Below are positions 2,831-63,886 of a DNA stretch of 64,000 nt, in pieces. A program made the translations under genes and the position numbers. The notes under the pieces were generated by a model. That model searched no databases and was not told the DNA's origin. It saw only the letters and a program-made list of their open reading frames with translations. How positions within the stretch are numbered: position 1 is the first letter of the stretch; the number at the start of each line of letters is the position of its first letter. Source of the DNA: Marsupella aquatica (lineage: Eukaryota > Plantae > Marchantiophyta); NCBI GenBank assembly GCA_973895155.1, contig OZ316895.1, forward strand, positions 20,226,803 to 20,290,802. The letters are read 5' to 3'.

Positions 2831-2929
2831 AGGTAGACTGATTGTTTGCACGGATGGGACTCTATGTCAAACACTTGTCAAGGAGCTTAAGGGACTTTTC
2901 TCCTAAAAAACTATCTACTACCTGCTCCA

Positions 2930-4793: not shown

Positions 4794-4819
4794 TAGCTGC
4801 ACACTTGAGAGGAGATCTA

Positions 4820-10350: not shown

Positions 10351-10790
10351 GGGTACCACCTCACATATGCTTCTGGAGAGCTACTGCCCCCAAGGGTACC
10401 TCCTCACATATGATTCTGGAGATCTAGTGCCCCCCCAACTTTGGTGTGGTTATCTTACCCCAACAAGGTCTCTTTGCGCTGTCCTCTATCATGCTCATAG
10501 GCATCGGGGCACTGACCCTAATAAAATCTCATCATCCTCAAACAGAGTTTAGGGCCGCCCCCTGCGACCAAATCTCAGGCACTGTTGCAGCAAGAGTCCC
10601 TGCGTGGCAGTTTTCAGGCCCAGCCATGGCTTACGCTACCCACTACTACCTCAGCCACGAGGATGAGTCCAGCCACTGTGGCTAAGTCTTTCCCAACTTC
10701 ACTTGCCCATAACCTGAAATCCTAACATCCATTGGAGATGTATCTTAGGGGGTTCCGATTGGAGATGTATCTTAGGGGGTTCAGATTGGG
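10351..10790. repeat. Two short tandem duplications (~43 bp x2 at 10351-10438; 28 bp x2 at ~10731-10789)
   Basis: GGGTACCACCTCACATATGCTTCTGGAGA.. and ATTGGAGATGTATCTTAGGGGGTTC.. are each repeated directly. Confidence 0.8.
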
Positions 10791-36707: not shown

Positions 36708-37127
36708 TCAAGCATACAAGCATACATTCAAGCACTCAAGCATACAAGTGACATTGCCAGGCACACTGCAGGATGGAGAGTGGTTCCAGATGATACATTG
36801 TGCTCTATGCAAAAATTGACATCCAAGAGAACGGTCATCCAACTCTGGGCAAGAAGCCCGACAGGCAGGACAGTCATATTGGCAAATGTGTACACACCCT
36901 TGGGCCCTAATTTGTGGCGGGTCATGTACGAGAGACAAAAATACCAAGGATGTTGGGAAGGGTGGAGAAGCAGGTATAGGCCGACTGTAGTTATTCCTGG
37001 CAACAACAGGGTACTCAAAGTACCATGCAGACTGGGCAGGAAGGATCCCAAGTCTGACATACTCAAGGCGCAACCTCTCTGCCTTGCGTGCAAGCCGCAC
37101 ATGTTCAGCATTGCGAGTGCTCACCAT
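36708..37127 (-). CDS. Cys/His-rich orphan ORF of the CACTA family (homolog of 59030-59479)
   Basis: 139 aa. ~36745-37395 is highly similar to ~59095-59748 and the frame is open in both copies. Confidence 0.45.
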   Translation of the reverse strand: MVSTRNAEHVRLARKAERLRLEYVRLGILPAQSAWYFEYPVVARNNYSRPIPASPPFPTSLVFLSLVHDPPQIRAQGCVHICQYDCPACRASCPELDDRSLGCQFLHRAQCIIWNHSPSCSVPGNVTCMLECLNVCLYA

Positions 37128-39939
37128 AACTGTTGCTTTTCTTCAAATGTTTTGTGTTCACGTCCTCCGACATCCTTTGATCAGCAAGGTGAGCAGGAGC
37201 TACACTTGCCTCACCAACAATAACCAACCTTAACTTATCAGTTCCCACTCACTGTATCATTCCCTTGGTTCCAAGTAGAGGTCATAGTATAAACTAGCAT
37301 GAAACACTCCTAATCAACAATGTTGCAAACTACAATATCCAAAAAGACTGAAAGTCTCACCCTGTAGTGAGCAGCAGAGAGGTAGTTCACTGCTTGTAAG
37401 AGTGAACTGAGCAGGAGTGTAGGTAGACTGGCATTCAGTTGGCACAACAATATTGTGCATCAGCACAAAAGCTCTTATAAACATGATATGCATTCATGAA
37501 ACTCGTCGATACAGCACAGGTCGGCATAGGAAGTGGCCCGCAGCACTCAGTCAAACTTCATAACCAAAGTATAGACTGTGTTCACAATAAGGATCTTCCT
37601 TAAAAAAGGGCCCACCAAAAGGGGGTGGCAGAAAGCTCACTTGACAAAAGGAAGATGGGAATGAAAAAAACCCGGAAAAAACTGCCTCCAAGGTCAATTC
37701 ATCCATGGCCCAGTTCAAGACAAAACAAAAAGAGTCAACTCTACACTTGGTTGTCCAAATTAAGCATGCATCACTGAATGAACGAGGGTGAAAGCTTGTG
37801 AACATTTTGGTGAGGGCCCCAATCCGCTCACATTTCACAAACAATGCCAAAAGCCAAGGAGCCCAAGCCAGAGGACGCAGCAAGAGGCCAAACAGCATGT
37901 ATGCATTTTAGTTCAAAGGGGGATTCAGTCTCCTCATTCACTTCACAAGTTGCAGAGAACAAGCACCTCGGTTGACTCCCTGAACCCAAGCTGAAGATAC
38001 CCATATGGAAAATGTTTTTACTTTTAAGCAATTTACTTATAGGGCTTGGCTTGGTTCTACCAGAGGTGTACAGTCATACTCCCCTCAGGTAGAATGTGTA
38101 TGCAGTTATGAGCAGATATGAAGAAGCCAGCAAAACAGAGGAGCCAATCGAAGCCAAATCCTACATTCAAAATATGAGTTAGTTTGTACCTTGCAAAGGT
38201 GGACCCCTACCCTGCCTGAGTGACTGACAAGATCCGCCGGCTTAGGTTGCACGATGCACGCCCTCGCTCCACCTCTCCAAGATGCAGGGTCGATGTAGGT
38301 TGCAAGTAGAAGCTCACAAGCCAAATATTGGGCGAATGTGGGCTCCAACTGTACTGTAGTGTGTCGTGGCTCTGCTCCTGCCTCCTATAGCTTCGAATGT
38401 GCCAGGGGTTACCAAACAACTGTTATTCTATTGAAATTGGCTACAAAGAACTCTTGTCTTTCTACACTCCACCTGCACCAAAATGAAGTCTTAGTACCAG
38501 TGAGACCAAGAACACAAAAGGAAGGGGCACATTCAAAGACAAAGTGATTCATACCACATTCAAAGATAAAGCGGAAAGAATTGGAAAAACCAGAGTGAAA
38601 GAATTGCGAATGAATATCTGTTCACACTGTATGCACGGGATCTTACATTTAGGGTGACTCTATTTGCAAAAGCCATAAAACAGAGAAACAGAGACCAGAA
38701 AACAGAGAAACAAATTAAGCATGCATCGCTGAATGATTAAGCATGCATTGCTGAAACGTAAAAACTTCACAGCGTATCATTTCTCTAAACAAAGGGCCAC
38801 ATACTCTGGTCTCTACAGAGAAAGCAAATCCAACTACGATGAGAAGATTGGTACAGAACAGGAGAGAAAAGGGAGACCAGAACAAATATTTAAAATCAGA
38901 ACAAGAAGACTGGCAATTTAAGGAACCCCAAGGAGCCTATTGCATTTGAATCACATACATGACCCTAGCATACTCATAGTGGGGCACTAGATACTGGGCA
39001 AACTCAAGGTAATGGTCAGAATGAAACCAAAAAGGTCTTGAAGTTGCCAGGTCCCGCCTCGTTCCTCTTGCACTTTGCAGAAAACAAGATGCAGAAAACT
39101 AACCTATAGCTCCAACCGGCTGTAGTTGACTGAGCTGCAGCAAGTTGTGAAGACAGGTCGTCCCCAGCGGCACCTTGTCCCTGCCTTTAGCTCGTCCTTC
39201 ACCGCAAGTCTTTGAGCTGCTCACAACCACAGCTAATAGATGGCTAAATAATGGGATCATGTGCAAAGGGAAATTATGAGCGATGAAGCGAAGGGAAGCA
39301 ATCAGTTCCGGCACCCAACAGCTAAAATGACCTCACTGACAGTTGGCATCTATGCAGATAGATCGAGGTCTTGTCACTAAGTTAGACACAATTTATGGTG
39401 AGAGTGTGAGTGTGAGTGTGAGGTTCCAGAGAAGGCTAAAGGACCTTTGCAATGCAAAATGTGGTGCAAATGGAGCCGCGAGGTGGACAATAAGTTGGTG
39501 ATAAAACCGGGCAGCATACATAACACCAAACCAAAGACACAAATGACCAAACCGAAAGACGCTTTCACCAACAATGCATATTCAGGACATGAGTGAATGG
39601 AAAGAAGCAAAGAGAGATACAGGGATTACAAAAAAAGACTAGGCCCTCGTCTGTCCAGACTTCTGTAGGACTCCACTAACTCCATTGTCCTTCTCAGATC
39701 CCCAAGAAGTCCATGAAGCAACGAAGAACCTGGGCAATGTGACTTAAAGTAGCAACAGTACATACACATATGAATGAAAGGCTGGTTTGGGGCAGCACAA
39801 GCAAGCAATGTGACCCCCTGCGTTCTGCTCAATCAGCCAAGAACACCCTAAAATCTATGAAAACAACGGGCAACAGAGGAGTTTGTAAGTGATTCTCACT
39901 TGAAATTCCGCCAGCTGAATCTTCCTTGTTAGAAGGTCT

Positions 39940-40520
39940 GCTAACTCCGCAGAATGACTCCCGGATGATTAGAGCAACGTAAGTGGCTCACTCCCTCTGA
40001 ATGTAAGTGAGACACTCCCTCTGAATGTCTCTACTCATCAGAGAGTAGAGCTCCTCCCACCTTTGACCTCCCCAACTCCCCAAAGGTCAGTGGCATCTGC
40101 ACAGTCACCTCCTTTGCACACCGCAATCGCTTCAAATCCCTCCTCCTAAAGCGCACAATGTTATGCCCAAGCGCGATCAGGTGGCAGAGTCGACAACAAA
40201 TTGAGAAAGAGTGACTCGGGAGCGAAGTGATTCAGAGCAGGTGGCTCTTGCTAACTCCACAGAATGACTAGTAGATGATTAGGGCAGCGTAAGGGCAGAG
40301 CTCACTCCCTTTGAATATCTCTACTCATCAAAGAGTAGAGCTCATCCCACCTTCGACCTCCCCAACTCCCGAAAGGTCAGTGGCATCTGCACAAATGAAG
40401 CGGGAGCACACCGCAATCGCTTCAATTCCCTCCTCCTAAAGTGCAAAATGTTATGCCCGAGCGCAATCAGGTGGCAGAATCGACAGCAGTGAAGTCTTCG
40501 AGCAGGTGGCTCTTGCTTTT
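39940..40520. repeat. Tandem duplication of ~260-310 bp inside the small CACTA
   Basis: GCTAACTCC.CAGAATGACT...CAGGTGGCAGA.TCGACA at 39940-40197 and 40250-40487. Confidence 0.9.
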
Positions 40521-42162
40521 CCCTCGCAAAAACTAGTAGTCGGCACTAAACTACACACCAGCACAATCACTCCTTGGATCCCTTCCCGTTGATCGGCATT
40601 TTTACCCTAACAAAAGTTCACACATGTTAGATGTCACTTAACACTTAGCACAAAACGGTCAGTAAGACCTAGTAAGTGTGCATGAGATTTTGTTTGTGGC
40701 CCTTTTAGTTTGGTGATTTGGGTATTGGTTATACAAACACCCAATGTCACTGGGAGTAAGACAACACCCACCCTTATACGAGAATGCCTAAATTTGATTA
40801 AACTTTACAATACCCATTTGGTCACAATTAAATAATGAGACCACATATTAGGGAGCAGGCCTAGGTAGCATAGGGTACTTTAGGGCTGGGCCCTCCATTG
40901 TGTGGCTGTTTGGCCTATAGGGTATAGGCCAGGAATACATATCGATAGGTCGGAGTTTAGCTCCCAATTGTTCACTTCAAGGTTTAATTAGTTAATTAGG
41001 TCGGGTTACACCGTACGTCCATACCGTGCACCATAATATGTGTTGGCTATATAGTAATGGACCGAACTCATCCTTATCCTTATTACATAAATGAACATAC
41101 TAATAGGGATAAAAGAAGGTAAGTATGACCCCAAATTATGCCAAATCCAAATGGTAACATGACACATATTAGGTGTGCAATATGTAATGGTCAGTTTAGT
41201 GACTAAAATGGCTTGCCTTCCTTCCCGCCCTTCCTAATTGGTCATAGGAATAAGACAACGACCAAAAAGTGAATAGTTGTATATGTTTTGGTGTCTTATG
41301 TTGACTTAAGAATGACTCAGAAGTCGTATATAGTCACATAAATATGACTAAAGTGTGGGCTGCGCACAATGGCGGTCAAGCCTGTCATAAGTGGTCGGGT
41401 CACAAAACACCCCGGTTTCTACTAGTGGCAGTTTCCAAGAAGCAACACGACAAGGACTATGGAAAATTGACGTTGTAACAGGTGACCTTGTCCTTCTGTA
41501 TGATAGCAAGTACATGCAATTTCCCAGGAAGCTGCATACTCGCTGGTTGGGACCTTTCCTTGTCAATCAGATTTACCCAAATGGATCCATTGAACTCACG
41601 ACGTACGCCGGTGACTTACTTCCCACGTGAGTTAGTTACAATCGTGTTAAGAAGTACCATCATCAAGATGATATCACCAATAGCGATGTTCGTGAGGACG
41701 CTTCACAGTTAAGTAGGGAGCTATGTGACGCCGCCAGCACGGCTGGTAATGAGTAATACGGCTTAACCCGTGTTACGTACGTTGGAAGTAGACTTAGTAG
41801 CCTGTAGTTATTAGTATAAAGACACAAATTAGCTAGTCATGATGTTTAGGACATGATTTAGTAATAATGGGGATTCGTGTTTGGGCTGGCGGCTTGGCAC
41901 CTGACGTACTGCCGGATTAGGGGCGCGTTATGGCTGTCCGCCTTGGATCAGTATAACAGATCCGGAGATGGCCCACTGGCATGCTTTGACCCGGACCTGC
42001 GGAGTGGTTGGTACCCCCCGGGCGTGAGGGGCTCGGCCTATCATAGGCAGGAGGAACCAATCGGTCGACGCACCACAAGAGTATAAAAGGCGAGCTCTTC
42101 CCCGTCTTGGGCCACTAGTTCACTCCATGCGCCAGCTTTGATCCCAGCCTCTCTAGTTTTCC

Positions 42163-47325: not shown

Positions 47326-48148
47326 CACTAGTAGAAACCGGGGGGTATTTAGACCCCATTAAACGACTATTCAGTACCGTATAGGACTTGGAAACGACTG
47401 GGAAGGACTGCAGTCCTTTATAGGACTGCGAGTCGTATGTTTTGTTACTATAATCAACTGAGTCCTTTATAGAACTGGTTTATAAGTCGTTTAATAGACT
47501 GGATTTTCAGTCTATTTTAGTCTTTGTGTGGGTAGCTTTGGTGAGTCGTTTTCAGTCTTTTATGGGCTGCGATGATGAGTCGTTGGGAATGACTAAAAAG
47601 GTTATGGAGGGTAGTCTTTAAATATACTTTGTGGGGTATGTATAAGTCTTTCATGTCAACTGGATATGAGTGATGAAGACCCCACTATACTACTTGGAAT
47701 GAACCCACTCTTGTGCACAAATAACATATTGCATTCATGTTTTATTGTGTACTTGGAATGAACTCACTCTATAAGTTCACCATTCATCATGTTAACATTA
47801 GAATACATAGTTTCAGAAAGCCATCTTCTATACCATGTACACTAATATGAATTCACAGATTCAAACTTCATAGACTACAAAGAAGGTCACAAAGTATTCC
47901 TCTATACCATACACACTAATACTGAAATGATAAAATAGATTCAAGTATCATAGACAATCACCATAGAGCCATAGTTTGACATCAATCACTTATGAACATA
48001 CAGAATTCAGAAATATCAATGTCACACACAACGTCTCCTTCATCCTCTTTACCAAATGGAAAAATTGGTACAGATATTTCTTGGATCTTTCCAAGGCAAT
48101 GTCAAAATGTGACACAATTCACATGATTCTATCTACACTTGCATTCAG

Positions 48149-51100
48149 TCAATGCAGACTAACACACTCTGATGGCCAGAGCACAAGAGATCCTACTGCA
48201 TCTGCAATTATTTCCTGAGGTGGATCATCGTCTCTATTCGGAAATGGCAAATTACAATCAGATACAATCACTGTAGTCAACAACACTACTACATGGTCAT
48301 CCGGGACCACTTTGCCATGGAATTTTGCATGATCCGGTCGCAAAATGCCTGTACCCACACATACTTGCGAGTCATCCTCCCATGAGAGAAGATTATGGAC
48401 TGGCTCTGCTGTGGCTATCACCTCCACCTTACCCTGGCTGTTTTTCTTGGCTTTCCTGGGTGGCTTATACATGACATTATTCATACCTTGGTTGCGAGTC
48501 ATGACTTTGGCACGAGTGTTTTGTGCTGGTGATCGAGAATTGGCTACACTCTTCTTCAAAGAATCTGCATCCATATTTGACACTTCTGATTGTGTAGCAG
48601 GATTTCCCTGCGACATCATCTTAGTATCTGCCAACATTGTACTTGCTTCAATTGAAGCATCTACAATCTTACTTGCATCCAATGTTGCTCCCAAGTTTCG
48701 ACGTCGCTTCACCCTACTCCCACTTGGTTGAGAGTCTGTCAACTCTGCATCAACTTCAATTCAGTGTCATGTCCAACATAAGTCAATCACTCATCACATG
48801 TGCTAAATGTACATGTCACCAACCACAAAGTTGTCACTATCTCCTTACCATTATGAACAGCCTTCTTCCCCTTCTTTGCCATTGCCATATGCTCCATGTC
48901 TGCTTCTGTTGATCAATAAACACACCACAATATTCAGGTTGAATCTATTAACCACTGAATTGTTGCTCAACATTCATATAGAGGAATTTAAAGCATCAGC
49001 TTACCTGATACCTCCTTGGCTATGGTCACTGAGGCACTGGGCACATCTTCTTCATTATTGCTCTTTGAATCACCTGATACATCAATCATGATGTCACTTC
49101 AGATCCCAGTTCATCCAACCAGTTCTTACAGAAAAGATTACCTCCAACCGGCTTAAGCTTCACAAAACTCCATGCACTTTTCAAATGTAATGTATTGGAT
49201 CATAGCAGGTTACCTGTCTCAGCAACCTTCTTGCCCTTCTGCTTACTGATTACAGGGTCCTTCTCTGCCTCCACTCTTCCTGCATTCAAACCATTCACTC
49301 AATTCATGAAAACTTACTTCTAACATTTGAACATAGGACACAATGAACAATGGGCCGGTGTCATTTCCATACCTGTGTCAGATTTGCCAATTCCCTTTTT
49401 TGTTAACAAGGGCACACTTTGTACAATGTTGCCCTCATTGTTTGGTTGGGAACCACCCAATTTTTCAATCACAAGCTTGAAATTAGATTCCACTGATGCA
49501 AGAAGGTTCGCTACAGATGCCTCCACAATATCCAAACGATCAGCCAATTTACTTTCCACTCGAGGGAGTCCACACTCTAATGACTTCAACCGTTCACACA
49601 TCTCTGTGAGAGTTGTAACAGTTCCCTGTCATAACACAGCTTACATATCTCAGATAACTGTCCCCAAGAACTGGTTGCTTACTTCCTACTACATTTCTTT
49701 CTGATGCTCAAGGCCAAATAGTCACAGAACATACAGAATTACAACATAATCACCTGTTTGGAAGTTACACTTGTCACCTCACTCCTTTGTTTCATGAACT
49801 CCTCTCTCACTTCTTGTGCTGATGGTTCTTCACCTGTCAATTTCTTCTGCAGTCCACATCAACATACATATGAATGAAACCAAGTGTTGATTGTCAATGA
49901 AAATGTAATAATGGTAGCAAGATGATAAGTTTGAGGCTTACTATCAGGCATGTCACTGCCTTACCAATTGTTCTTTCACTGGAGCATAACTTCCTCTCCC
50001 AGCCTGTGAAAGGTGTTTCACTTTGCCTCGAGCATTTGACATCAGTTCACTCTTGCTCTGTCCAGCCTCCGACATGAACCCTTTGATTAACCGTGTCCAT
50101 TGATCCAGTTCCAATGATGGGGGTGGTGACATTCTCCTGTTAGAACCATTGTCTATCCACATCCTTTTCAACCTATGCCTCTCTTGTTTCAAAATCCTCA
50201 TTGCATAATCTGATATGCAATCTTCAACTGGGCCCTTACCATCATTACCAACATACTCCCACCGTTCAAGAATGTCCTTGCAGATAGCAGCCCAATCAGC
50301 TTTGTTCTGACTCCTAAACTCTGTAATGCTCAAATCTAACCAACGCAATACTTCTCCTCTTAGGTCAGAATGCCAACGGTTCTTACCATCACATGTGGGA
50401 GTTATCCAACCTTCGGAATTCACTTCTACTTTACCAAATTTGTTACTGTCTCCTGCCTTGGTACTCCCTGAAGCGCTACTAGGTGTCCCTCCACGGCCTG
50501 GTGTCCCCCCACGGCCTGGGGTCCCTCCACGGCCTGATCTCCCCCCACGGCCTGGATTGCATTGTCCAAACCTCCCTGGAGTCCCTGCACATTTACAGGA
50601 TCCATTTACAGTCACTTACATTAGGTAAATATGAATCATAAATCCCGCTGCCAAATATACAGTGGACTTCAGAGCAATTCTGCAATGACCAAGTTACCTC
50701 TCCCTTGGCGCATAGATGGTTCTGGACCACCTGTCCTATTGCTTTGTCTTGATGAATTAGGGGCGTTTCTCCCGCCTGTGAATGATTGCCTCCTATCTGA
50801 ACGTGGATGGCCTTTGTTGTTTTCGTGATTGTCCCAATCAGAGTCTGCATACCAACAGGTACATGCCACACTCATGGACCTGTAAGATAAACTCTTTGCC
50901 CTAGCTACACATCAGATAAGTGCATATTGAGCTAAATCTCTACTATCATCACAAAATCACTAGCACAAGGCACTTACTTGTCCAATCATCCTCCTCACCT
51001 TTCCATTGCCCTCTGTACCCGTCTCTACCACGCTCTGGGTGTTCATATTCATCCCATCCATCTTCTGCTCCATCATAGTCATCATCATAATTATCAGGCG

Positions 51101-51320
51101 TCCCTTGCCAATAACTCTGGCTCCTTCTAGGGTATGGATTATGTGATTTCTCTCTAGCTGCCCACCTACCTGGGACTTGATGAGGGCCCTGTGCATCTTG
51201 CACAGGTGCATTTTTCTGTGAGCCCCCTGCATCTGGGTCTCCATTCATATCCAATCTTTCCTCTTCACCCCACTCTCCAAGCCCCATGTCTGTCTCCATG
51301 TCATCACCCTCTTCCCCCAT
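48149..51320 (-). CDS. CACTA TnpA-like protein (multi-exon; exon structure approximate)
   Basis: Exon 49965-50595 has W..I...W EY...RILKQERHRLKRMW..PPPSLELDQWTRLI...SELMSNARGKV..AGRGSY (Ptta/En/Spm-type). A coiled-coil exon lies at ~49360-49625. The last exon has FHGKVVPDDHVVV...LPFP...IADAVGSLVLWP. Confidence 0.8.
50482..50555 (-). repeat. 18-bp coding repeat (PGRGGT) in TnpA
   Basis: CCACGGCCTGG repeated four times, giving PGRGGRSGRGGTPGRGGTPGRGGTP. Confidence 0.85.
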
Positions 51321-51497
51321 AGCTTCTGCACAGCACCCACAACCAAACAGGGAGAATCAGCACACTAAATTCAAAGTATCAATCAATTTCATGCATATCC
51401 AACTATCCTAAACATCATTCCAGGCAGCAATTCCCGTTATGTGACTCTGTGCAGGTAGTCATCCTCAACCTCATACTTGCCAATCGCCAGCTGTTGC

Positions 51498-54400
51498 CTA
51501 TTGCAAATCATCAACCTCATCATATTCCATTTGCCCAGGTTCATCATATGTCTCTCTCAATGTTAAGGGGATGTAGTCAGTCCCTGCCCGAGTTGGAAGT
51601 ACAGTCTCATGACTAGGATGCTCGAATGCAGCATGGTCATCCAAACTGAACTCTACTTTACTTCCATCCATCCGCCTGTTCCGTGCTTGGCTATGGCATA
51701 CCACCCTCCAGCCATGTGACTCCTCCACATCTGCAAAGAAAGCCTGTTCAACTTGGCTAGGGAAAACAAAAGGCTCAGACCATTCTGGTACTCTGGACCT
51801 AAAATTGGCCAACAAGAACCCATCATGATCACGCTTCATGGTGGCCCTTGGTCTCTGCCACTCTGATTTCACCCATGATCCCTTCATCAATATCACTGGG
51901 ACACTTGTGTTACCATAATTCAACACCCAAATGTCGGTCAACTCCCCCACGTAACCCATCTTCATCCACCCCCTCTGTTCTTCAGAGGTTCTCTGCTCAA
52001 ACACAGAAATCAAACCACAATCATATGATACACAATGGTCACCCTGCTCATCCCTCACTCGATAATGATTTCCATAAGCTCTCATCCGTTTGTAGGTCAG
52101 AATAGACAATCGTGGTGGCACAGATAGAAGATACAAATCCTTCTCCATATCTGGGTGATGTCTACTATGCTCTCGAATTGTCACCCAAATCCACTGCTCG
52201 AACTGTGGGAAGGGATCCTGCTGCCCAGAGTGTGCAGCTTTTTGCATATCATATTCCCTGCATTATGAGGTACAGGCATAGTTAGGTCTAAACAACACAT
52301 GACAACCTAAGATCACCCTTGGAACAGACAAGAAGCATCACAACAAAGGCAAGTCAATTCAATCACTCACCTCCACCATGGTTGCATAGGCTCTGTGTTT
52401 GCCAGCACATATGAATGAGCCTTGTCTCGAATCGCAACAGGCAGCTGAACAGCACGTCCCACACCTTCAACAACCTCGCCACTCACTCCATCATCTTCAC
52501 CAGATTTCCAAACTCTTGTCATAGCTTCACCAGACCCAGCCATGTACTCTGTTAGGAATCCCAACGTCTCATCCTTAATGTACCCCAATGCCATGGAAGC
52601 CTCTGGCCTGTAGTATGTTCTCACATGACCTTTCAACAACTTCATGTATCGCTCCATAGGGTACATCCATCTGGTACTGACTGGCCCATACTGCCCTAGC
52701 TCTTCTACCACATGGATTAGGAGATGAGTCATAACATCAAAGAAAGCAGGGGGGAAGTATATCTCCAAGTCACAGAGGACATAAGCAGCATCCTGCTTCA
52801 ACTGCTCCAATCCTTGGGGATCCCACACTTTCACACATATACGGCGAAATACATTGCACAGTCGAAGAATGACATTACGGACTGGTTTCTGCATGAGACC
52901 TCTGAGGCATAGGGGCAGAATGTGCTGCATCAACACATGGTAGTCATGTGTTTTCATACTGCCAAGTTTATTCTTTGTAATATGCTTCTTGAAGGCACCA
53001 GCATAGCCAGAGGGCACTTTCAGACAGCTCAATCTATACAAGAATGTCTTCCATTCATCCTGTGTGCACACATAGGGAGCTTGGAACTTGAGAAGTACAT
53101 TGGGATTGCTTGCATGGGGCTTCAACCAAAGGTGAGGGCGAATCCCCTTCTGTTGCATATCAGCTCGAACTGCTCCTGTATCTTTCTCACCCGACAAGAA
53201 CTTCAGCAAGCTCTCACAAATATTTTTCTCAATGTGCATGACGTCCACATTGTGTTTGCTGGGCTCGAATTCCTGCACTCCACAAAGCAAAGAATTCAAC
53301 AACAGAAACACTAATTAACCACATAGGAGGATTGTAACCAACATCAATCCACCATTGCTCCAATCTAAAATTGCAATCATACAGGGGCTGGAGGCTAAGT
53401 ACATTACCCTCCAGTACTCCAACTCCAAGTCCATCAAGGTCTGTCTTTTCACACCGTGTTTCACCACTGGATCCTCAGGTTCTCGATCAGTGGCACTTCT
53501 CTTGTCCCAATCAGCCTTCCTGGCTGCCCACCTCAGGACTTGCTCTCTGGTGACCCTCTGTGGTGGGCCACGAAGCTCTGTTTTGTTGTTGAAGTGTGCA
53601 ATTTGAGACCGTGTGTGCCTGTAAGGATGATCAACAGGCAGATACCTTCTATGCCCCTGAAATTTCATACTGTGCAGGGCATGCGACCACTCACTTGTCA
53701 CATTTTTCCCACATGGTGTGCACCCCACATAGCCCTTTGTCACTCGTCCAGATATGATGCCATGGCCTGGGTAATCTGCTATATCCAGCAAACAAATTGC
53801 ATGCAGTCTAAAGGGGCTGGGTCAAAGAAGCCCCTTCAGAACATCATGGGTTAACACCCCTTCTATCCACAAAGTCTTCCACTCTTCCACTGCTGGAGCC
53901 AACATGATATCTATGAATTGCTCGGTCACAGAAGCTGGTCCAGGGATTAACAGCACCATCATGACAAAAAACCTCTTTGTAGTCATCCATGGGGGAAGGT
54001 TGTAATTTAGCAGCGTAACCGGACAACATGAATAACGGTTGTTTTTGTCTCCAAATGGGTTTACTCCATCCAGTGATAGACCAAATCGAAAGTTCCGCTT
54101 CTCTACAGCAAACTGTGGCCACCTCTCATCAACAAATTTCCAATGGTTGGAATCTCCAATGTGACGCTGCAGGCCATCACTGCTCTTGTTATCAGGAGTC
54201 CATGTCATCAGCTTGGAAATGGCAGGGCATCTAAACAGACGTTGTAGTCTAGGAATGAGAGGAAAATGACGAAGAACCTTGGCAGGGTGTGTACATTTCC
54301 CTACATTCTTGTACCTGTGCTTACCACAATGAGGGCATGTCAATTTATCTGCATGCTCTTTGCGAAAGAGAACACACCCATCAGGGCATGCGTCAATAGA

Positions 54401-55198
54401 CACATAGTTCAGCCCAAGGTTAGACATCAATTTCCTAGCCTCGTACATATTTTTTGGAATTGAATTACCATCTGGTAACACATTTCGGCGCAGGAAGGTC
54501 AACAACTCTGTCACAAATATATTGGGAACATTGTGATTGCCACAGATGTTCAACAACAACACGACAAAACCCAGCTTGGAGCAGTTCGACCCCTCGTAGA
54601 TAGGAATGCAAGCTTCTTTGATGTGTTTTGGGCCCCCAAACACCCACTCCCTCTCTGCTGCACCTTCCCCAATGTCAAAGTCAGGTTGAGCTTGGCCGTC
54701 GCCAATGTGTGGCTGCGGTTCATTGTCCTCTTCTGATTCCACTGTGTCGTAAAAAGCATCAAGGTCTTCAAAAATCTCTTGAACCATTCTTGGGACATCC
54801 ATCCCACCGTCCTCAGTGATTGCCTCTGCATCTCCATCTTGGTCATCCACGTTCTCATGTTGGACCCCAGGACCATCCTCTACACAGTCTATGTCCTGCT
54901 CTACGTAGTCTCTACGCCTAGCTGTATTAGAATCCACAAAGTCAGCTCTCCACTCTTCATCAGAGGAGTCTTCTTCTGCTGGTACATTCCAAACCCTCCA
55001 CCGAGGGTGCCTTTCATGCCGCAGCAGGTGAAGGTGCACAGTGTTCAAACTCAACGACTTGAATCCTTGGCACTGTGTGCATGGGCATCTCATCCTCCTA
55101 CTCCTACCTTGGGCGGCCCGGGCTTGTTCACGCATCCACAATTTAGAATCATGATGCCTAATCCTAAATGGGTTGTGAAGAGGCAACCTTGGAGCCAT
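51498..55198 (-). CDS. CACTA TnpD transposase (two introns, one in-frame TGA at 53822-53824)
   Basis: MRCPCTQC; IDACPDGCVLFR..CPHC; HFPLIPRLQRLF; LSLDGVNPF; YNLPPW; DYPG; DVMHIEKN; KTHDYH; FPPAFFDVMTHL; WMYPMER; EPFVFPSQVEQAFF. Introns at ~53410-53273 and ~52370-52259. Confidence 0.95.
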
Positions 55199-55524
55199 CA
55201 CTATACACACGCACTCAGCACCCTGTCATTTTATTATGCAAGCGAAAAATACACTTCCTGTTAAGGATTTCACCCCCGACTGTACTTGCCAAAATACGTA
55301 ACGTTCCAAAAAAACAAAAAAACAAAAAATATAGGTGCCTGAGTCATGTACCTATTCTCAAGTGAATGAGACAAAATTCCTAAATGTTTGAGGGTGTCAA
55401 CTCCTCCGTTGTCCTCACATGTACTGCCTCTGCACGTACATCCATGACCATATCAGAGTCCAATCATGTATAGTCATAGACACAGGTGCCAGGTGCGAGA
55501 CCGGTGTGAGATGTCCTCATCTTA

Positions 55525-56094
55525 CTACCACATCAAATACGGATACCAATCCTGTTGTCGATGCCACTCAGCCCTGAGGTACTCAGGCATGTACATTAAG
55601 TCATCAAGGTCTAAACCCTGCTCATGCCATGGTGGTCTTCGATCCGTGCCTACAAGCAATGGCAGCAGTGCCCTCCATGGTGCACATGTTGCTACCAAGT
55701 CCCTCCACTGGGTACTAATTAGTCTATATTTGCAGATATCTTGTGCGCCAGACACCACAAGAACCCTCGGCCAGACATGTGTAAGAACTATATCATCTGC
55801 CAAATCAGGCAACAAGGAACCACCTACAGCATCGTGCTTGTCTAACTCATCTGCTGAAAAGTAAATGTCCTCTTCCGACTGTGCATCCTCATTCACCACA
55901 GCATTCACAACACATCCAAGGTCTGCAGGCATTATCTCGGATGGAGCTACACTCTGTCTGGTTACCAATCCACACAAGTAAGCCCAAGCAGTAGCCATGC
56001 ACGATGCAACCCGTAGGAGGACCCTACATAGGGCCTGACGGTCTGGAAGAGGCAACATACCCACCAAAGTCTTCAGCCAAACAGAGCCCAGCAA
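55525..56094 (-). CDS. F-box-like protein (CACTA cargo)
   Basis: SLLPDLADDIVLTHVWPRV...ICKYRLISTQWRDLV fits the plant F-box pattern LLPxLPDD...L..V...WR.L. No recognisable substrate-binding domain. Confidence 0.65.
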   Translation of the reverse strand: MLGSVWLKTLVGMLPLPDRQALCRVLLRVASCMATAWAYLCGLVTRQSVAPSEIMPADLGCVVNAVVNEDAQSEEDIYFSADELDKHDAVGGSLLPDLADDIVLTHVWPRVLVVSGAQDICKYRLISTQWRDLVATCAPWRALLPLLVGTDRRPPWHEQGLDLDDLMYMPEYLRAEWHRQQDWYPYLMW

Positions 56095-56234
56095 GTAGAT
56101 TCACAGTCACACCCCACGCAGCAGGAAACAACAATCACTTCAACTGCGACCAACCATGACAAGATGAGTTAGTTCAAGGATCACATTTATTACAAAATTG
56201 TGTTTTATACAAAAATATGAGGGACTCCTACTCC

Positions 56235-57081
56235 TCACTCTCTCCCACCTTTGCTAAGCATACATCTCCGCTGAATCTTGGAGGGCCAGGCCTCAAAAAT
56301 ATCAAAGTCCCAAGCATTCTGTCGCTTCCCTCTAGCTGCTGATTCCAGAAGCCAATCAGGGGAAAGCACCCAAAGATTGTTGTTCATGACAAAATCACGC
56401 ACTGTTGTCTTAAAGAATTTTCTGCATATTTTCATGTATGACAGACCTACAACATGAGTGGAGGTTTCTGTTAGACTCTCCTCCACTGTCCCACCTAGCT
56501 CAACAACTATAGACTTGTACAGTCTGCACTTAGTCTCCCCAATTCCTTCTTCTGCAAATACCACACTGAACCCCTTCATAATGGTATTTCTCTCCTTGCC
56601 ATGCTCATTCAATATAGCATGCACGCATAGGATGGTGTCCTATGTTGACAACAGGTCCATATTGGACAGAAGCAAAGTTGGGTTTCTCTGCCGCTGCTTC
56701 ATAGGCTTCCTTTTCAGCCAAAGCCTCTGCAGTGGCCTCCTCACTCTCCCACAACTCATATTGCTCAGTACTCTGTACACACCTATGTTTAACAGAATCG
56801 GTCAGCCAAGAGACTTCAACTACTTTTAGACCTTGGTTGGTAATGGCAGAATCAATGAAGGACCATGACCACTTGTTCATCACATCCAGCCATGTCCCCG
56901 CAACAACATGTGTAGTCTGTGGAGTGATGTCCTTGACTTCAGTCCCATGGAACTCTGAGAATCGTTTTTGTACGATTGGCCAACTCACTTGGGTGAACCC
57001 ATAGTGGCCAGGAATCAAAATGGCTTTGATTCCAGCCAATAGAGGCGGGTGGTCAACCTTTGTACGTTTTCTAGAGGCCAT
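56235..57081 (-). CDS. Tandem BRCT-domain protein (two ORFs joined by a frameshift or small intron, or two single-BRCT genes)
   Basis: LAGIKAIL...HGTEVKDITPQTTHVV...VVEVSWLTDSV and MKGFSVVF...LGGTVEESLTETSTHVV...LSPDWLLESA, each with the BRCT G-G/THVV/W..(D/E)S pattern. Confidence 0.85.
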
Positions 57082-57679
57082 GTACACACGGGCCACCTAA
57101 TCATTGCAGACCGGAAGATAATGCGTTCACCTGATAATCGGAGGGCCCTTAAAATGCTGCGTTTATAACTTGGTCCAGTCCAGTCGTCTGGTGAGTCTCT
57201 GCTCCGATTCCAAACGGGAGAAATATTGGGACAAACGTACTAGACACCTGCAAGCATGCACCTCATAGTTTGAATATGTGCCTTCACAATATTGAAGGTG
57301 ACAAGTGCAATTGTTTTGTGATGCCACATACAGATGTTGTAAATGGGCAGACATTCAATGAGAATACAAAATGTTGGTACACTTTAAGGGAATTCTCGCA
57401 AATTAAATAGCCTTGTAACTTATATGCTCATAATGAGAAGTCCTGATTTAATTTAAGCAGTGTCATGTAAGTCGTGATCAAAATGATTGCAGAGTTAAAA
57501 AAGTTCCTAGAAGGCTTAAGGGCAGTTTTTGAAGGCATGTACCCAGGAACAAGTAATGAACTTAGGGTACTTGTTGCCTAAGCATCCTCTCCTACAGAGG
57601 TCCTTCTTCTCAAAATTGGAATGTCTGCAATCTCCAAGGTATCCACATCAGGTGCACTATGCATGTATATTATTCAGGT

Positions 57680-58360
57680 TCAAAGCCAAGAAATGTGATC
57701 TCTCATGGGAGTGTGCAAAGTAGGATCTATGGCATGGCGATGACAATAGAAGATCCATCGATCAACACCATGTGCAGAGTGATCATAGATGTGTCTGTCA
57801 CAAGCATAGCCTTCTGCTTGACGCTCATTCAAACAATGAAAGTGCCACATGGTGGGACACCTAACACAGTGGACTATGTCCACCCAGAAATCTTCATCGT
57901 GCTGACCACATGCCTTGCACTTATGAAGTGGGCAAGCTGTGGCAAGATCGGGCAAACATGAAAAACAAAAGAACCTCACACAATATCTGTCAGGGCATTT
58001 CCTAACAAGTGGTGGAGCATCAACAAAGCCCTCATAAGACCCCAACTTCCCACACTGTGCACACTTAGCCTGCTTCTCCAAACAATCAGTGCACATCCAG
58101 CCTCCCTGGTGTGCTGACGGGAGGCCCACCCCTGGACAGTTGTTTTCTGCAGCAAGGTCAGACTCCGGGTTGAGGTGGAAATGCCTCATGCAAGGGCCCT
58201 CACATATGGCTAAGCCACCACCATCGTCACAAATGGCACAACAATGAGCTGCCTTCTGGAAAATCTGACTTGCGGAGAAGTTACTACCATCTGGCCCAAC
58301 TACACCTGTGTTGCTCACCTCTGTCCCCCGCTTCTTGGCTCGGATTTTAGGGCGTGCCAT
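57680..58360 (-). CDS. EDM2/NSD-type composite (triple) PHD finger protein, intronless (CACTA cargo)
   Basis: CAICDDGGGLAICEGPCMRHFH...WMCTDC..KCAQCGKLGS...CPLHKCKAC...CVRCPTMWHFHCL...IFYCHRHAIDPTLHTPMRDHI matches the recalled plant EDM2 PHD region and its downstream motif. Basic NLS-like N-terminus. Confidence 0.88.
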   Translation of the reverse strand: MARPKIRAKKRGTEVSNTGVVGPDGSNFSASQIFQKAAHCCAICDDGGGLAICEGPCMRHFHLNPESDLAAENNCPGVGLPSAHQGGWMCTDCLEKQAKCAQCGKLGSYEGFVDAPPLVRKCPDRYCVRFFCFSCLPDLATACPLHKCKACGQHDEDFWVDIVHCVRCPTMWHFHCLNERQAEGYACDRHIYDHSAHGVDRWIFYCHRHAIDPTLHTPMRDHISWL

Positions 58361-59029
58361 GCCTACGCATGAGACAGATAGTACAATTTAGCAGAGTGCA
58401 CGGACAATACAATTTAGTGCAGTGTACAAAAAGTACAGTGTAGCATATAGACTAGAGTGGCAATTGCTACTGCAATGAAATGTTCACACACATGTGCAGA
58501 GTAGACATACTTTTTGGTTTGTTGAGCCCACACTAAAAACTGATCCCCTCGTACAATAGCTCCACCTACACCTCAATTTTGTGGCTATGATTCACCAAAG
58601 GAGATCTGCAACAAGATTTAATGCATTTGAATCACATATAACAGTCGTGACATGTAAAACAGACATTTTTTGAACAGGATTGGTATCAAGCACTGTGATC
58701 AGGGTTGTAATTTATACATCCTAAATAGGCTATGATAGTGAATGAGACAAATAAGTTAGGCAGAAATCACTTTTTCCAGGTTATCACATGGCCCATTAAT
58801 TCCAGTCTTTGAAAGGAGACTTTTAAGTGAGCTTGCTAGCCTCTTAAATTAGGATATTGTACTTAGTGCAGCCATAATAGGATAAGTTATGTACTGTTGA
58901 CCCTAAACCCTGGACCCAAAATTGGTCATAATTCAAAATCTTAAGTAAATATCCTCTCTGTTCAAGTCAAAGTGTTAAGTTATAGGTCAATGGTCTCTGG
59001 TTTGTGCATGCGGTGTGACAAGTGGTCCT

Positions 59030-59479
59030 CTAGAGCGTGTGATCCAAACATGTGTAGACACCAAAGTGACCGGTGGTGGGGTCTGGGAGGGCAGGACAAG
59101 TGACATCGCCAGGCACACTGCAGGATGGCGAGTGGTTCCAGATGATACATTGTGCTCTGTGAAAAAACCGACATCCAAGAGAACGGTCATCCAACTCTAG
59201 GCCAGAAGCCCTACAGGCAGGACAGTCATATTGGCAACTGTGCACACACCCTTGGGCCCTAATTTGTGGCGGGTCATGTATGAGAGACAGAAATACCAAG
59301 GATGTTGGGAAGGGTGGAGAAGCAGGTACAGGCCGACTGTAGTTGTTCCTGGCAACAACTGGGTACTCAAAGTACCATGCAGACTGGGCTGGAAGGATCC
59401 CAAGTCTGACATACTCAAGGCGCAACATCTCTGCCTTGCGTGCAAGCCGCACATGTTCAGCGTTGCGGGTCCTCACCAT
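59030..59479 (-). CDS. Cys/His-rich orphan ORF (CACTA cargo)
   Basis: 149 aa with CVHSCQYDCPAC..C..H...C...H...C. Homolog at 36708-37127. Confidence 0.45.
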   Translation of the reverse strand: MVRTRNAEHVRLARKAEMLRLEYVRLGILPAQSAWYFEYPVVARNNYSRPVPASPPFPTSLVFLSLIHDPPQIRAQGCVHSCQYDCPACRASGLELDDRSLGCRFFHRAQCIIWNHSPSCSVPGDVTCPALPDPTTGHFGVYTCLDHTL

Positions 59480-62400
59480 AAGTGTTGCTTTTGTGGAGAT
59501 GTCGTGTGTTCACGTCCTCTGATAAGCACCTTCGATCAGCAAGGTGAGCAGGAGCTGTACTTGCCTCACCAACAGCAACCAACCTTAAATTATCAGTTCC
59601 CACTCACTGTGTCATTCCATTGGTTCCAGCTAGGGGTCACAGTGTAAACATAGCATGAAACACTCCTAATCAACTTGCTTACAAACTACAATATCCAGAA
59701 AGAGTGAAAGTCTCACCCTCCAGTGAGCAGCAGAGAGGTAGTTCACTAGATGTGTTGATGTGCAGTTAAACCTCCACTATTGCTTACTTCTGGTGTATGC
59801 TGCTCAGAAGAAGACATATTAGTAGCAGCAAATTGCAAATAATGGCCATAAGCAAACCGTGAGAGTTTGCAAAATGCTACGACAAATCCATCACAGCAGT
59901 GCTCCACAGGAATGAAACCAAGCAAAATTTGGTGACCTCGGCCAATGACAAGGCCAATGTAGTGAACAATCCTTGACCGATCAGGATATGGATTGGAATT
60001 ACAATTAGTCAGCTCTTCTTCTTTGTTTTCTAACTCTGGGGGAAATGAGCATGACCAGGGAATTCTTTGAGAAATAGAAGTGCACAGGGAAAATGAAATT
60101 GGCTCATTCAGCTACGCAAGACCGGCCATTGCAGCAAACTTGGACAGTTGTTCCGCAATACATAAAATACCCTGACTTACATGCAATCGATACAATCTGC
60201 TTCTGTTGGCTGTCCTACAGCTCACGGTAGTGCCGTTGGGATAGGGTAAGTGAATATTGTCATAGCTGAAGCACATTGAGCTTGCAGCAAGAAGTGAAGG
60301 AGCATGGCCAAAAGCAGAAAAGACAGACAGGTTTTACAAGAAGAAACTAACAACCGCCAATCTGCTCAAATCCGCTGCATAGATCAAACCCTCCAAACTA
60401 CACAGCCCTCCTTTGAAAACAATCCAATGTGCTTTGGCTGGTGGATGACAAGGACTGGGAGAAGAGGAAACGTCTACACAATCAATCCCAATGACGGGAC
60501 ACAGAGACCAGGCACAGAGAGGATTTGTGCTTAGACAAAAACCACAAATTGTAGCATGGGCGCCATAGCATTGGGCGGCAATGGGAAGAATTACATCAAA
60601 TGAGTGGACAGAGAATGAACAGTCCGGTTATAGGCAAACAGCGACTGATGCCCTGATGCAATGAAACACGCATTGACATAGCGGAGGGACATAAAAACTA
60701 CATAAGCCAACTTACTGACCTTTTAAGGCCCACAATTTCAAGGGGAGGGACAAAGACAGCAATAACAGACGCAGAGACAAAGCTGTACTCTGTCAATTGA
60801 GTAGGCAAGTGGGTGGGTGAAGATCAACAACCAATGTAGCAGCGCAACCAGAGTAGCAACAAAGAAGCAGGTTGCCCTCAGTCTCCTATTTTTCAAGCAG
60901 CTCATGCTCGCGGTCAATCTCCTATTCTGCAAGCAGCTCACGCTCGTCCCTCTTGTTCTGCAAGCAGGTCATTCTTGTCGGCGATGGTGCAAGCTGTCCT
61001 CCTAAACTTTGACACTCAAAATGAAAAGACCAAGCACCTCCAATCTGTTTGATCCCTTCCGCAAGCAGTCGAGTGGCAGACGATAATGTAGGGATCAAGA
61101 ACCAAGTGCCAGGCGGACATTGCACAAAATGAGGACCGGGGGCAGAGACAAAATCTACCAAAATCTACCGAAATCTACTTCTTGGGGTCCAGCCCACGGA
61201 TGGACATCATGCAAGGTGGTCAAAAATGGTAAGTGCAATTGTTGGAGAGCTGTACTCGCGATTACTAACGGTGCATCCACAAAACGCGTCATCAAGTTGT
61301 CAGTGCGGCCACAACAATTTTGATAGTCTCAGGATCACAGGTCCACAAACAAGTTGCAAATGAAGACACACAACGTCCAGGAGGGAAAGTCCGCAACACT
61401 AACCCTTTGTAAAGCCCCCGAGCTTACCTTCTAGCTGCCGACGCAAAGAGAAAACCTACTTGGACACTGAAGCAACCCTAAACTCAAAGTCTCACCTTAG
61501 CGCAACAACTCCTGGATTGGATTCAGCTAGCTCAGGCTCAATGAAGCATGTCGCCTCGGGCTCTCCGGATCCTCCCAAGGCAGCAAACAAGTTAGGGTCC
61601 ACGGTCCTTGTACCTTCACCGCACCGTTGTGTCCTTCCCAATGCCTCCTCTGTAGTTGCGTGTTGTCTGCAACTCTACAGCTCCCCGTGTTGCTCTGCCG
61701 CACTTAGTTATATTCCAACGCCCGATCGTGACCAAAAAGAGTTTTCTCCTGCTGGACAGCACTAGGCATTTGTTCAATCTCTTGATCACGCGTAAGCAGC
61801 TACAGGTATGAATCACTCAGTTGGCAGCTCAATACGCTTACAGCAAGAGGGCACAATAGGTAGAAGCTCGCGCTACCTAGACCAGCACAAGGACAAAGCA
61901 TTAACATTGAAACTGTACCATGGAGCTGGAGAAAACCACAGAGTAATTTAAGCCTAACAATACCCTTCTTAGCTCCCGACTCCAAACTCTCGGCTCCCAG
62001 TTTGCAAGAACAAGCACTATGAAAATATGGATTCCCACATTGACTGTGTCCGTAGAACAGATGCAACCCGCATGCAACTTCACCAGCTCAACGGCAGCTT
62101 GACAACTGAAGGACCTCCCAATGAGCCTCACGGCCTCCCGATGCTCGTTATGGGTGCAGCAAAAGGGTCTATACCACAACTGTGACCGAGATTGTCACCC
62201 AAAACCTTGAAGAAACCCCAACCTCCGACTCCTCAAACTCCGACAAGCTCCTCACGAACGTTGCAGCAGCCACAACCTTCTTCACCCTACCAGCCAAAAA
62301 CTAAATGTCCCTAAAGGAGATCGAGCAGGAATGCAGGTCTATGAGTAGACTGCAAGCGCAAGGTTAGATCACTGCAACTGCCTGAACACTGCTCCTCGAG

Positions 62401-63886
62401 AGCATAAACAAGCATATAACGCGCGGGAAGTTCACTCCGCAATGGTCGCAAAAAGTGGGCAACACTGAAAGGAAAACCCTACGTAAAACCCCGAACACTC
62501 CACCCCTCACGTTCTAAGTTCAATGACAATGGCGAAAACTCCAAAGAGACTCCCAAAGTGAAGTTTAGTGCCTGAAACCGAATTAGGGGAAGCCACTCAG
62601 CCTTACCGTTTGAGTGAGCCGTTGAGTGTCACCCAAAGTGGGACAAAGCTACAAAGTGTTACTGCATGGCCAACTTAGGCAATGAATGGTCATATTTGCA
62701 CATACATGGTCGGTAGTGACATTTTATTGCACGCCGTAATCAGGATTAAGGTTGCCCAACATTATATCCGGTCCTAAAATGCAATATTCCCGGTGCAAGA
62801 ATGTGACCTAGCTCTAATGTATGAAAAAGGACCGGTACAAATCTACCTTTGTGCATCTTGACCTTTTATAGATGGATTTAGTAATGGCCAAGAATATCTT
62901 GACCATCCCTCCATGGTCCAACCTCCATGAACCCCACTTCATTAAACCCAAAACCTTTTTGGTCACAAATAAGGACATTTAATGAGTTATGCCCCTTGCT
63001 ATCACCCTCTTTATAGATTTATTTTTTTGTTTGAAATTTTACATTTATTCCGCGTGAACCCCACGGATGGGGGAACCAGTAGGCCAAATGGCATCATAAA
63101 ACCTCAACACCCAAAGGAGGCAATAACAAAGAGTTACTCAACCAGGGTCATCAGATCAGGCAAAGATTGCGAAGCCGTTCTTCTAGTGGTCCATGCAACA
63201 AGTAACAACTAGGGAATAAGCACTAGAAGGCGCAGTAGGTCAGCATAGTGTAAGTGTAAAGTGTCAAAGCATTGTCTAGTACTAAATTAATCCACCTGAT
63301 TAGTAAGAAGGGGGTGTATACTGTAATGGGAAAAAGAAAAAAAACCAAGGCATGAGCAAGGGCCACCAAGAGTGGTGCAGCTATAAGCTATAGGGATTGA
63401 ACACAATGCGGGGGGGCAGTGGCACTATGTATGAGGAAATCACGGGAGTATCGGTGTCAAATGAGTCGACAAAACTCCCAGATAGCCACACAGTATAAAT
63501 CAATCTCACAGAAGGCTGCCATCAATGGAGGAAACAATTTGACACGACCCACATCTGAGAGTGTGAATTCGCTCGATCTCCAGCAGTTCTTTGGCACTCG
63601 ATAGACGTCGGTGCTTTCGGCTCAAAGATGAAGGAGAATTACCCCTCCTCAACATAGAGTGAACATTACCCATGATGTGCTAGACTATTCACCCTTCACA
63701 AAGTAGCAAGGTTACTTCTCATAGTCTTTTAGTGAACCATAAAACTCTCATAGTCTTTTCTAGTCTTCAACAAAACCGGTGCAATGGGTGCGAGTTGTTT
63801 TAAGTATGGAAAAAGGACTTAGTGGGCATAGTCCTATAAGGTATGGTCTAAATTGCCCCGGTTTCTACTAGTGCATGCATGACGAG

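What the first reader, a model, noticed from the sequence alone, without database searches (positions are those of the whole stretch)
57680..58360. Stand-alone EDM2-like PHD reader encoded by a transposon
Seen: a complete 226-aa ORF with its own ATG, a basic N-terminus (RPKIRAKKR), three linked PHD-like fingers and the YCxxHxID..L.TPxRDH tail, ending right after the domain without introns. Known: Arabidopsis EDM2 reads H3K9me2-containing chromatin and, with ASI1/AIPP1, promotes full-length transcripts through heterochromatic introns. Inference: a reader-only version could mimic or compete with host EDM2, allowing full-length transposase mRNA from silenced chromatin or steering insertion.
Basis: partly seen in the sequence, partly recalled or inferred. 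Interest (0 to 1): 0.8.

Follow-up and report, generated by a model that had tools for sequence, protein, structure and literature searches.

The report
Plant transposon carrying a mini-EDM2 reader
A 16.5-kb plant CACTA transposon carries an intact, long-conserved gene for a cut-down, three-zinc-finger relative of the host chromatin protein EDM2, which likely binds histones and would help the element stay active in silenced chromatin, although neither binding nor expression has been shown.

Summary
A stop-free 226-codon ORF (58360-57680, minus strand) encodes an EDM2/NSD-type triple PHD module with 24 zinc ligands and the EDM2-type tail. It lies inside a complete CACTA element (47326-63873; identical 18-bp terminal repeats, CAT target duplication), in a same-strand row of short ORFs (unknown ORF, PHD, two BRCT, weak F-box) upstream of TnpD and a TnpA-like gene. 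This copy's TnpD has an in-frame stop; the PHD ORF is intact. It belongs to an unannotated family of short stand-alone proteins (tree support 100/100) with ligands 98% conserved against 46% elsewhere, so it is a maintained gene, not a decaying captured fragment. It is EDM2-like but not EDM2: no RFD or methyltransferase-like domain, no acidic tract before PHD1, a His-to-Cys ligand swap and a 20-residue deletion in PHD2. Its donor is unresolved; nearest named relatives are liverwort proteins. Histone binding, expression, and transposon linkage of the distant homologues are untested. Best reading: an accessory chromatin reader serving the element against silencing (0.4); insertion targeting and a non-histone adaptor role are rivals. 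New variant of a known kind; interest 0.6.

The parts
47326..63873 (.). Complete CACTA/EnSpm element, 16,548 bp, identical 18-bp terminal inverted repeats, 3-bp target duplication CAT
57680..58360 (-). Stand-alone EDM2/NSD-type triple PHD ORF, 226 aa, uninterrupted (the finding)
59030..59479 (-). ORF-X, 149 aa, Cys/His-rich second half, no Pfam family; also open in the 91% identical copy inside the small element; pN/pS 0.43 in this frame (weak)
56605..57081 (-). BRCT ORF 1, 158 aa (PF00533 E 9e-4, just under cut-off)
56235..56579 (-). BRCT ORF 2, 114 aa from ATG (PF00533 E 3e-9); different frame from ORF 1, 25 nt apart; one spliced twin-BRCT gene not excluded
55525..55932 (-). F-box-like ORF, 135 aa (PF00646 E 0.06-0.08, under cut-off: a lead only)
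51498..55198 (-). TnpD-type transposase gene (Transpos_assoc, Transposase_21, DUF4218, DUF4216), GT-AG intron about 53407-53273; in-frame TGA at 53822-53824 breaks this copy
48149..51320 (-). Multi-exon TnpA-like gene (Transposase_24 E 0.014, weak); exon model not established
36062..41427 (.). Non-autonomous sister element, 5,366 bp, same 18-bp termini, target duplication GCA; shares the ORF-X region (36744-37391) but has no PHD, BRCT, F-box or transposase match

Best explanation
The ORF is an intact, selectively maintained accessory gene of a plant CACTA transposon that encodes a compact three-finger EDM2-type zinc module, which likely binds histone H3 tails and would act in trans on the element's own silenced copies to keep them transcribed. 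Shown: the ORF, its position inside the element, the ligand set, the stand-alone family and purifying selection. Inferred: origin by capture of an EDM2-like PHD module early in, or before, the host lineage, followed by trimming to the bare module. Inferred and untested: expression, nuclear import through the basic disordered N-terminus, docking on nucleosomes, and a role in letting the long same-strand transcription unit (five short ORFs, then TnpD and the TnpA-like gene) be read through H3K9me-marked chromatin, by recruiting or displacing host chromatin and RNA-processing factors. The mark it reads may differ from EDM2's.
For: Inside a TIR/TSD-bounded element, same strand as and upstream of TnpD. 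17 of 154 homologues carry the family signature; all 17 are 93-245 aa and none of the 123 proteins over 300 aa has it. Ligand positions identical in 255 of 260 cells against 829 of 1818 at other positions in 11 homologues. Against metagenome locus L001, codon positions 1/2/3 are 59/61/30% identical over 193 codons, with the same uninterrupted structure and stop position. Model with a 78-sequence alignment: mean pLDDT 87, pTM 0.81, only residues 1-25 disordered; top structural matches are NSD PHD5-C5HCH tandems (Z 5.7-5.9, rmsd 2.6-3.0, 83-85 aligned). EDM2-type tail in 9 of 10 family members checked, 53 of 64 methyltransferase-bearing EDM2s, 0 of 4 NSD-like proteins. Contigs of four public runs (three coded organisms, three studies) cover all 30 bins of the element in many variants. 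Literature: EDM2's PHDs bind H3K9me2 and other marks and its complex favours distal polyadenylation (PMC7472560, passages); H3K9me persists on Arabidopsis Spm elements activated by TnpA (bioRxiv 10.64898/2026.08.24.746577, passages), so an active CACTA is transcribed across that mark.
Against: The acidic tract before PHD1 is gone (mean net charge of the 12 preceding residues -0.1 in 20 family rows against -5.3 in 63 EDM2s), PHD2 has Cys for His and a 7-residue spacer against mostly 25-28, so binding surfaces have changed. The RFD and methyltransferase-like domains are absent, and I could not read which part of EDM2 binds AIPP1. In NSD2 the homologous fingers are needed for chromatin recruitment but no mark is assigned to them in the passages seen (bioRxiv 10.1101/2021.03.05.433782). 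Transposon linkage is shown only for this window; L001 (1.9 kb) shows no neighbouring element gene, and no listed contig piece joins the PHD ORF to TnpD. 9 of the 17 family records lack the intact C-terminal tail and L001 has an in-frame stop before PHD1, so many copies are broken or cut short. A module without DNA-binding specificity cannot by itself pick out the element's own copies.
Confidence: 0.4

Rival explanations
1. Insertion targeting: the module binds a chromatin mark and also TnpD or the TnpA-like protein, tethering the transposition complex to heterochromatin or other safe sites.
For: Precedent for transposon-borne readers that guide integration: MBD in arthropod Copia, chromodomains, PHD fingers in retrotransposons (PMC6673714, passages). 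Both CACTA insertions in the window sit in a stretch made mostly of retrotransposon remains.
Against: Insertion among repeats is expected in a repeat-rich genome anyway.
Confidence: 0.2
2. Non-histone adaptor: the fingers bind a host protein (a silencing factor, an E2/E3, or a repair factor) as one part of a cassette with the BRCT and F-box-like ORFs that manages double-strand-break repair or removes a host repressor during transposition.
For: The neighbours are protein-interaction modules (BRCT twice, weak F-box) in the same orientation; the family has remodelled the surfaces around PHD1 and PHD2 while keeping the fold.
Against: The F-box match is under cut-off; co-occurrence of the cassette in distant family members is not shown; all close structural matches are chromatin-protein PHD fingers.
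Confidence: 0.2
3. A small host gene family of reader-only EDM2-like proteins exists in this plant lineage, and this CACTA family picked up one member fairly recently and amplified it.
For: Hosts do encode EDM2-like proteins without the methyltransferase-like domain, including short ones (Marchantia 280 aa; Triticeae 252-339 aa). The genomic context of the 38-53% identical homologues is unknown.
Against: No family member among those looked up (P0002-P0008) has a record in an annotated genome: all come from Logan or JGI contigs, while annotated liverwort, moss and lycophyte EDM2-like genes fall outside the clade. The many truncated or frameshifted members are what multicopy transposon cargo gives.
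Confidence: 0.12
4. Neutral Pack-type cargo: a captured gene fragment with no present function.
For: Pack-CACTA capture of host DNA is well known (PMC13317346, passages); this copy's transposase is broken.
Against: Ligands 98% against 46% conserved, saturated third positions, shared start and stop positions across 38-81% identical proteins.
Confidence: 0.08

Closest known systems
Arabidopsis EDM2 (ASI1-AIPP1-EDM2 complex) and plant EDM2-like proteins
   Same: Same PHD module: 61 of 211 identical residues to Arabidopsis EDM2 225-432, E 3e-24; 23 of 24 ligands the same; same C-terminal tail.
   Different: 226 aa against 1297; no RFD, acidic or methyltransferase-like domains; His-to-Cys swap and about 20 residues missing in PHD2; transposon-borne; not nested in the group with Arabidopsis-type EDM2 (p-AU 0.025).
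Liverwort EDM2-like paralogues without the methyltransferase-like domain (Calypogeia CAM6087769, Riccia KAL3685775, Marchantia MARPO_0005s0286)
   Same: Best-scoring named relatives of P0001 (96 bits for the Calypogeia protein; 33% identity); PHD module near the C-terminus; similar helix before PHD1.
   Different: Most are 619-768 aa (one is 280 aa), keep the His ligand and the long PHD2 spacer; sister relationship neither shown nor rejected (p-AU 0.515).
NSD1/2/3 PHD1-3 cassette
   Same: Profile match to human NSD2 647-801, E 1e-10; fold closest to NSD PHD tandems.
   Different: No SET or PWWP domain; NSD-like proteins checked lack the EDM2-type tail and score lower (33-53 bits against 59-96).
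Transposon accessory regulators: Spm TnpA, VANDAL VANC, fungal EnSpm TET/JBP
   Same: Extra gene inside a DNA transposon proposed or shown to counter silencing.
   Different: Those are sequence-specific DNA binders or enzymes; this is a host-derived histone-reader fold with no evident DNA specificity.
Retrotransposon-borne readers (chromodomain, MBD, PHD)
   Same: Chromatin-reader domain captured by a mobile element (PMC6673714).
   Different: Here a DNA transposon, a separate ORF, and a three-finger EDM2-type module.

Membership tests
CACTA/EnSpm transposon | CAC..GTG (CACTA) terminal inverted repeats | tested here: met
   18-bp exact inverted pair at 47326 and 63873
CACTA/EnSpm transposon | 3-bp target site duplication | tested here: met
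   CAT on both flanks
CACTA/EnSpm transposon | TnpD transposase domains | tested here: met
   Transposase_21 E 6e-34 and 2e-19, DUF4218 E 2e-27, DUF4216 E 1.5e-5; 34% over 800 aligned residues to a legume transposase
CACTA/EnSpm transposon | TnpA-like second gene | tested here: inconclusive
   Transposase_24 E 0.014 only; exon model not fixed
Autonomous CACTA copy | Uninterrupted TnpD | tested here: not met
   In-frame TGA at 53822-53824 within the aligned conserved region
EDM2/ELP proteins | Atypical PHD repeat, C4HC3 then C4HC2H units | tested here: met
   23 of 24 ligands as in EDM2, one His-to-Cys exchange; pattern as described in PMC3776765 (passages)
EDM2/ELP proteins | C-terminal YCxxH..TPxRDH tail of the module | tested here: met
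EDM2/ELP proteins | ELP (methyltransferase-like) domain | tested here: not met
   ORF ends 4 residues after the tail; family members likewise
EDM2/ELP proteins | Acidic regions and N-terminal RFD domain | tested here: not met
   40-residue basic N-terminus only; net charge before PHD1 near zero
EDM2/ELP proteins | Nests phylogenetically within plant EDM2/ELP | tested here: inconclusive
   Own clade 100/100; union with liverwort EDM2 33/59, with liverwort ELP p-AU 0.515, with NSD-like p-AU 0.315
EDM2/ELP proteins | Binds H3K9me2-containing tails; associates with AIPP1/ASI1 | not testable with these tools
   Needs peptide arrays and interaction assays
NSD methyltransferases | SET and PWWP domains | tested here: not met
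   No such Pfam match in the ORF or its neighbours
Pack-CACTA neutral gene fragment | Recent, decaying fragment of a host gene | tested here: not met
   Family-wide purifying selection and fixed start/stop

The most novel reading that the evidence does not exclude
A lineage of CACTA elements in non-seed plants long ago stole the reader module of EDM2 and keeps it, with two BRCT genes and an F-box gene, as a virus-like cassette of single-domain host mimics: the mini-EDM2 co-opts the host's heterochromatin read-through pathway so that the transposase is made from silenced chromatin, while the BRCT and F-box proteins steer repair and remove repressors.
Probability: 0.2. Interest if true: 0.85.

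Novelty: new variant of a known kind. Interest (0 to 1): 0.6.

Why it matters
Known plant DNA-transposon counter-silencing proteins (TnpA, VANC) recognise DNA sequence. A maintained, host-derived histone-reader gene would be a different strategy, and it comes from the very pathway plants use to transcribe through transposon heterochromatin. The 200-residue module folds with high confidence and is a natural minimal construct for asking what EDM2-type fingers bind, which no solved structure found here answers. If the BRCT and F-box neighbours prove to be kept with it, the element is a rare multi-gene eukaryotic DNA transposon with its own host-manipulation cassette.

Tried and rejected
No whole genome is held for this window, so copies could not be counted or aligned. 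No RNA holder was listed among 5 runs; this says nothing on expression. Depth figures were not used to rank genes or count copies, as the runs were found with this stretch; of its indel table only the 12 best-supported rows were shown (105 hidden), none inside the ORF, which is weak. No per-site variant table across the ORF was obtained, so dN/dS among young copies is open. No complex prediction was available, so PHD-TnpD contact is open. A word-index search for longer forms found 0 of 356 candidates, yet the profile search found hundreds of long EDM2 proteins, so that blank is uninformative. Viral contigs: 0 of 252 candidate stretches for the protein, 0 matches for the terminus. Metagenome contigs: 1 of 147 stretches, too short for synteny. 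Rfam: 0 matches in the element. The 85-row tree did not finish its careful search and has long unstable rows; the 41-row tree was used instead, leaving out truncated family members and near-duplicates. Solved-structure search could not place BRCT ORF 2 in a subfamily (best E 0.29). Fusion of the PHD to ORF-X was considered: ORF-X has its own stop at 59030, 670 nt upstream, and homologues begin at the same MARP start, so not favoured, but splicing is untested. Duan 2017 and Lei 2014 were not held. Earlier-finding look-ups by sequence, place and words gave nothing on this family.

Full report
Observation. window:57680-58360 read on the minus strand gives 226 residues from ATG to stop with no internal stop. 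A frame this long arose in 1 of 500 resamplings of the surrounding 8.6 kb. Pfam gives two sub-threshold NSD-type PHD matches, and the ESM Atlas's first hit is a streptophyte cluster of NSD-like PHD proteins (score 0.93). BLASTP to Arabidopsis EDM2 covers its residues 225-432 at 29% identity, E 3e-24. A pyrimidine-rich tract and AG lie just before the ATG, so a 5' intron is possible; 'no introns' is shown only for the coding stretch.

Context. An 18-bp CACTA terminus occurs four times in the window, 0.03 expected. One inverted pair bounds 47326-63873 with CAT on both flanks; the other bounds 36062-41427 with GCA on both flanks. In the large element all genes found lie on the minus strand in this order: ORF-X (59479-59030, 149 aa, no family), the PHD ORF, BRCT 1 (57081-56605), BRCT 2 (56579-56235), an F-box-like ORF (55932-55525, under Pfam's cut-off), TnpD (55198 to about 51498) and a multi-exon TnpA-like gene. 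TnpD aligns over 800 residues at 34% with a legume transposase and carries an in-frame TGA at 53822-53824, so this copy is not autonomous while its PHD ORF is intact. The small element shares only the ORF-X region, 91% identical, and has no PHD. Five public runs from three coded organisms and three studies hold 47-79% of the sampled words of 55400-58700; for the four laid, contigs cover all 30 bins, with 728 to 14,430 contigs per run ranging from over 99% to under 90% alike. I read this as a multicopy family present in more than one organism; the best holder may be the window's own source, and no listed piece bridges PHD and TnpD.

The family. The word-index search gave 5 proteins of 103 candidates, 217-245 aa, 38-81% identical, all from Logan contigs, most starting MAR and ending at or just after HISW. 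A profile search of 1.84 billion representatives gave 546 hits; of the 150 listed, the top rows are more short proteins and most of the rest are EDM2-like. By two sequence signatures 17 of 154 records belong to the short family, none of the 123 over 300 aa does, and 8 of the 17 keep the C-terminal tail. One metagenome locus, L001, holds a 41% identical uninterrupted copy with the same stop position but an in-frame stop before PHD1 and no recognisable neighbour in 1.9 kb. Selection is plain: ligand positions match in 255 of 260 cells against 829 of 1818 elsewhere, and against L001 codon positions 1, 2 and 3 are 59, 61 and 30% identical.

How it differs from EDM2. All 13 family rows that could be measured (of 20) have Cys at the PHD2 position where 60 of 63 methyltransferase-bearing EDM2s have His, and a 7-residue spacer where EDM2s mostly have 25-28; the 12 residues before PHD1 average -0.1 net charge against -5.3. 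The RFD and methyltransferase-like domains are absent. In a 41-row maximum-likelihood tree the 9 family rows form a clade (100/100) on a long stem with unresolved attachment. AU tests reject union with the group holding Arabidopsis-type EDM2 (p 0.025; I labelled that group by sequence, only one row's species was looked up) but not with liverwort methyltransferase-less paralogues (0.515) or NSD-like proteins (0.315); the best tree joins it weakly to liverwort EDM2 (33/59). The tail motif and scores favour a plant EDM2-like donor over NSD. The best-scoring named relatives are liverwort proteins and named TnpD relatives, all from flowering plants, are only about 36-46% identical, so the host is probably a non-seed plant, perhaps a liverwort; that is inference.

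Structure. With 78 aligned sequences AlphaFold2 gives mean pLDDT 87 and pTM 0.81, with only residues 1-25 disordered. Foldseek ranks PZP and NSD PHD tandems first; the second-look aligner puts NSD2/3 PHD5-C5HCH at Z 5.7-5.9, a modest score. By sequence the closest solved chains are NSD2 and NSD3 (E 1e-10 to 2e-8). The fold supports a zinc-bound triple PHD; it does not show which mark, if any, is read.

Mechanism. EDM2's fingers bind H3K9me2 and other marks, and its complex with AIPP1 and ASI1 favours distal polyadenylation across heterochromatin (PMC7472560 and PMC7529245, passages). A 2026 preprint reports that H3K9me stays on Spm elements activated by TnpA (10.64898/2026.08.24.746577, passages and one section). 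An element with five short ORFs ahead of its transposase on one strand would gain from read-through help, so I commit to an accessory reader acting against silencing (0.4). Against it: changed binding surfaces, no effector domain, no DNA specificity, and no data on expression or binding. Tethering of the transposase (0.2), a non-histone adaptor role with the BRCT and F-box neighbours (0.2), a host family recently picked up (0.12) and neutral cargo (0.08) are the rivals.

Comparison and novelty. Readers carried by retrotransposons and counter-silencing genes carried by DNA transposons are known (PMC6673714, PMC12730594, PMC10398659, passages). Nine literature searches (listings and abstract starts seen) showed no paper on a CACTA-encoded EDM2-type PHD; the main texts of an Arabidopsis transposon-product atlas, a gene-capture review and the Spm preprint have no occurrence of 'PHD'. 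Repbase was not searched and the preprint's supplements on 962 Spm proteins could not be seen, so prior annotation is possible. Verdict: real feature, new variant of a known kind, interest 0.6.

Noticed in passing
window 36062-41427: Non-autonomous CACTA with the same 18-bp termini and a GCA duplication; keeps most of ORF-X open but no other gene of the large element.
   Followed up: partly
window 59030-59479 (-): ORF-X, 149 aa with a Cys/His-rich half, no Pfam family; pN/pS 0.43 against its second copy, few sites. Possibly another unnamed accessory gene.
   Followed up: partly
window 55525-57081 (-): Two single-BRCT ORFs and an F-box-like ORF between the PHD ORF and TnpD; I found no description of such CACTA cargo.
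   Followed up: partly
window 6441-6911 and 32224-32697 (-): C-5 cytosine methyltransferase-like fragments (PF00145 E 2.6e-5 for the first) inside a repeat present twice at about 92% identity, among retrotransposon remains: a likely methylase-carrying retroelement.
   Followed up: no
window 19902-25235 (-): Copia-type retrotransposon with 304-bp direct repeats 97% identical and several in-frame stops.
   Followed up: no
P0013, P0016, P0018, P0027, P0030, P0059: Liverworts have a separate clade (100/99) of EDM2-like proteins that lack the methyltransferase-like motifs and end soon after the PHD module; Triticeae also have 252-339 aa EDM2-like proteins.
   Followed up: partly
window 55198, 57081, 58360: TnpD and the PHD ORF both have an AG exactly 2 nt before their ATG, BRCT 1 at 15 nt, hinting at alternative splicing from a shared leader.
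   Followed up: no
window 47326-63873: CpG observed/expected is 0.27-0.35 across the element's genes while CHG is near 1, consistent with long CG methylation.
   Followed up: no
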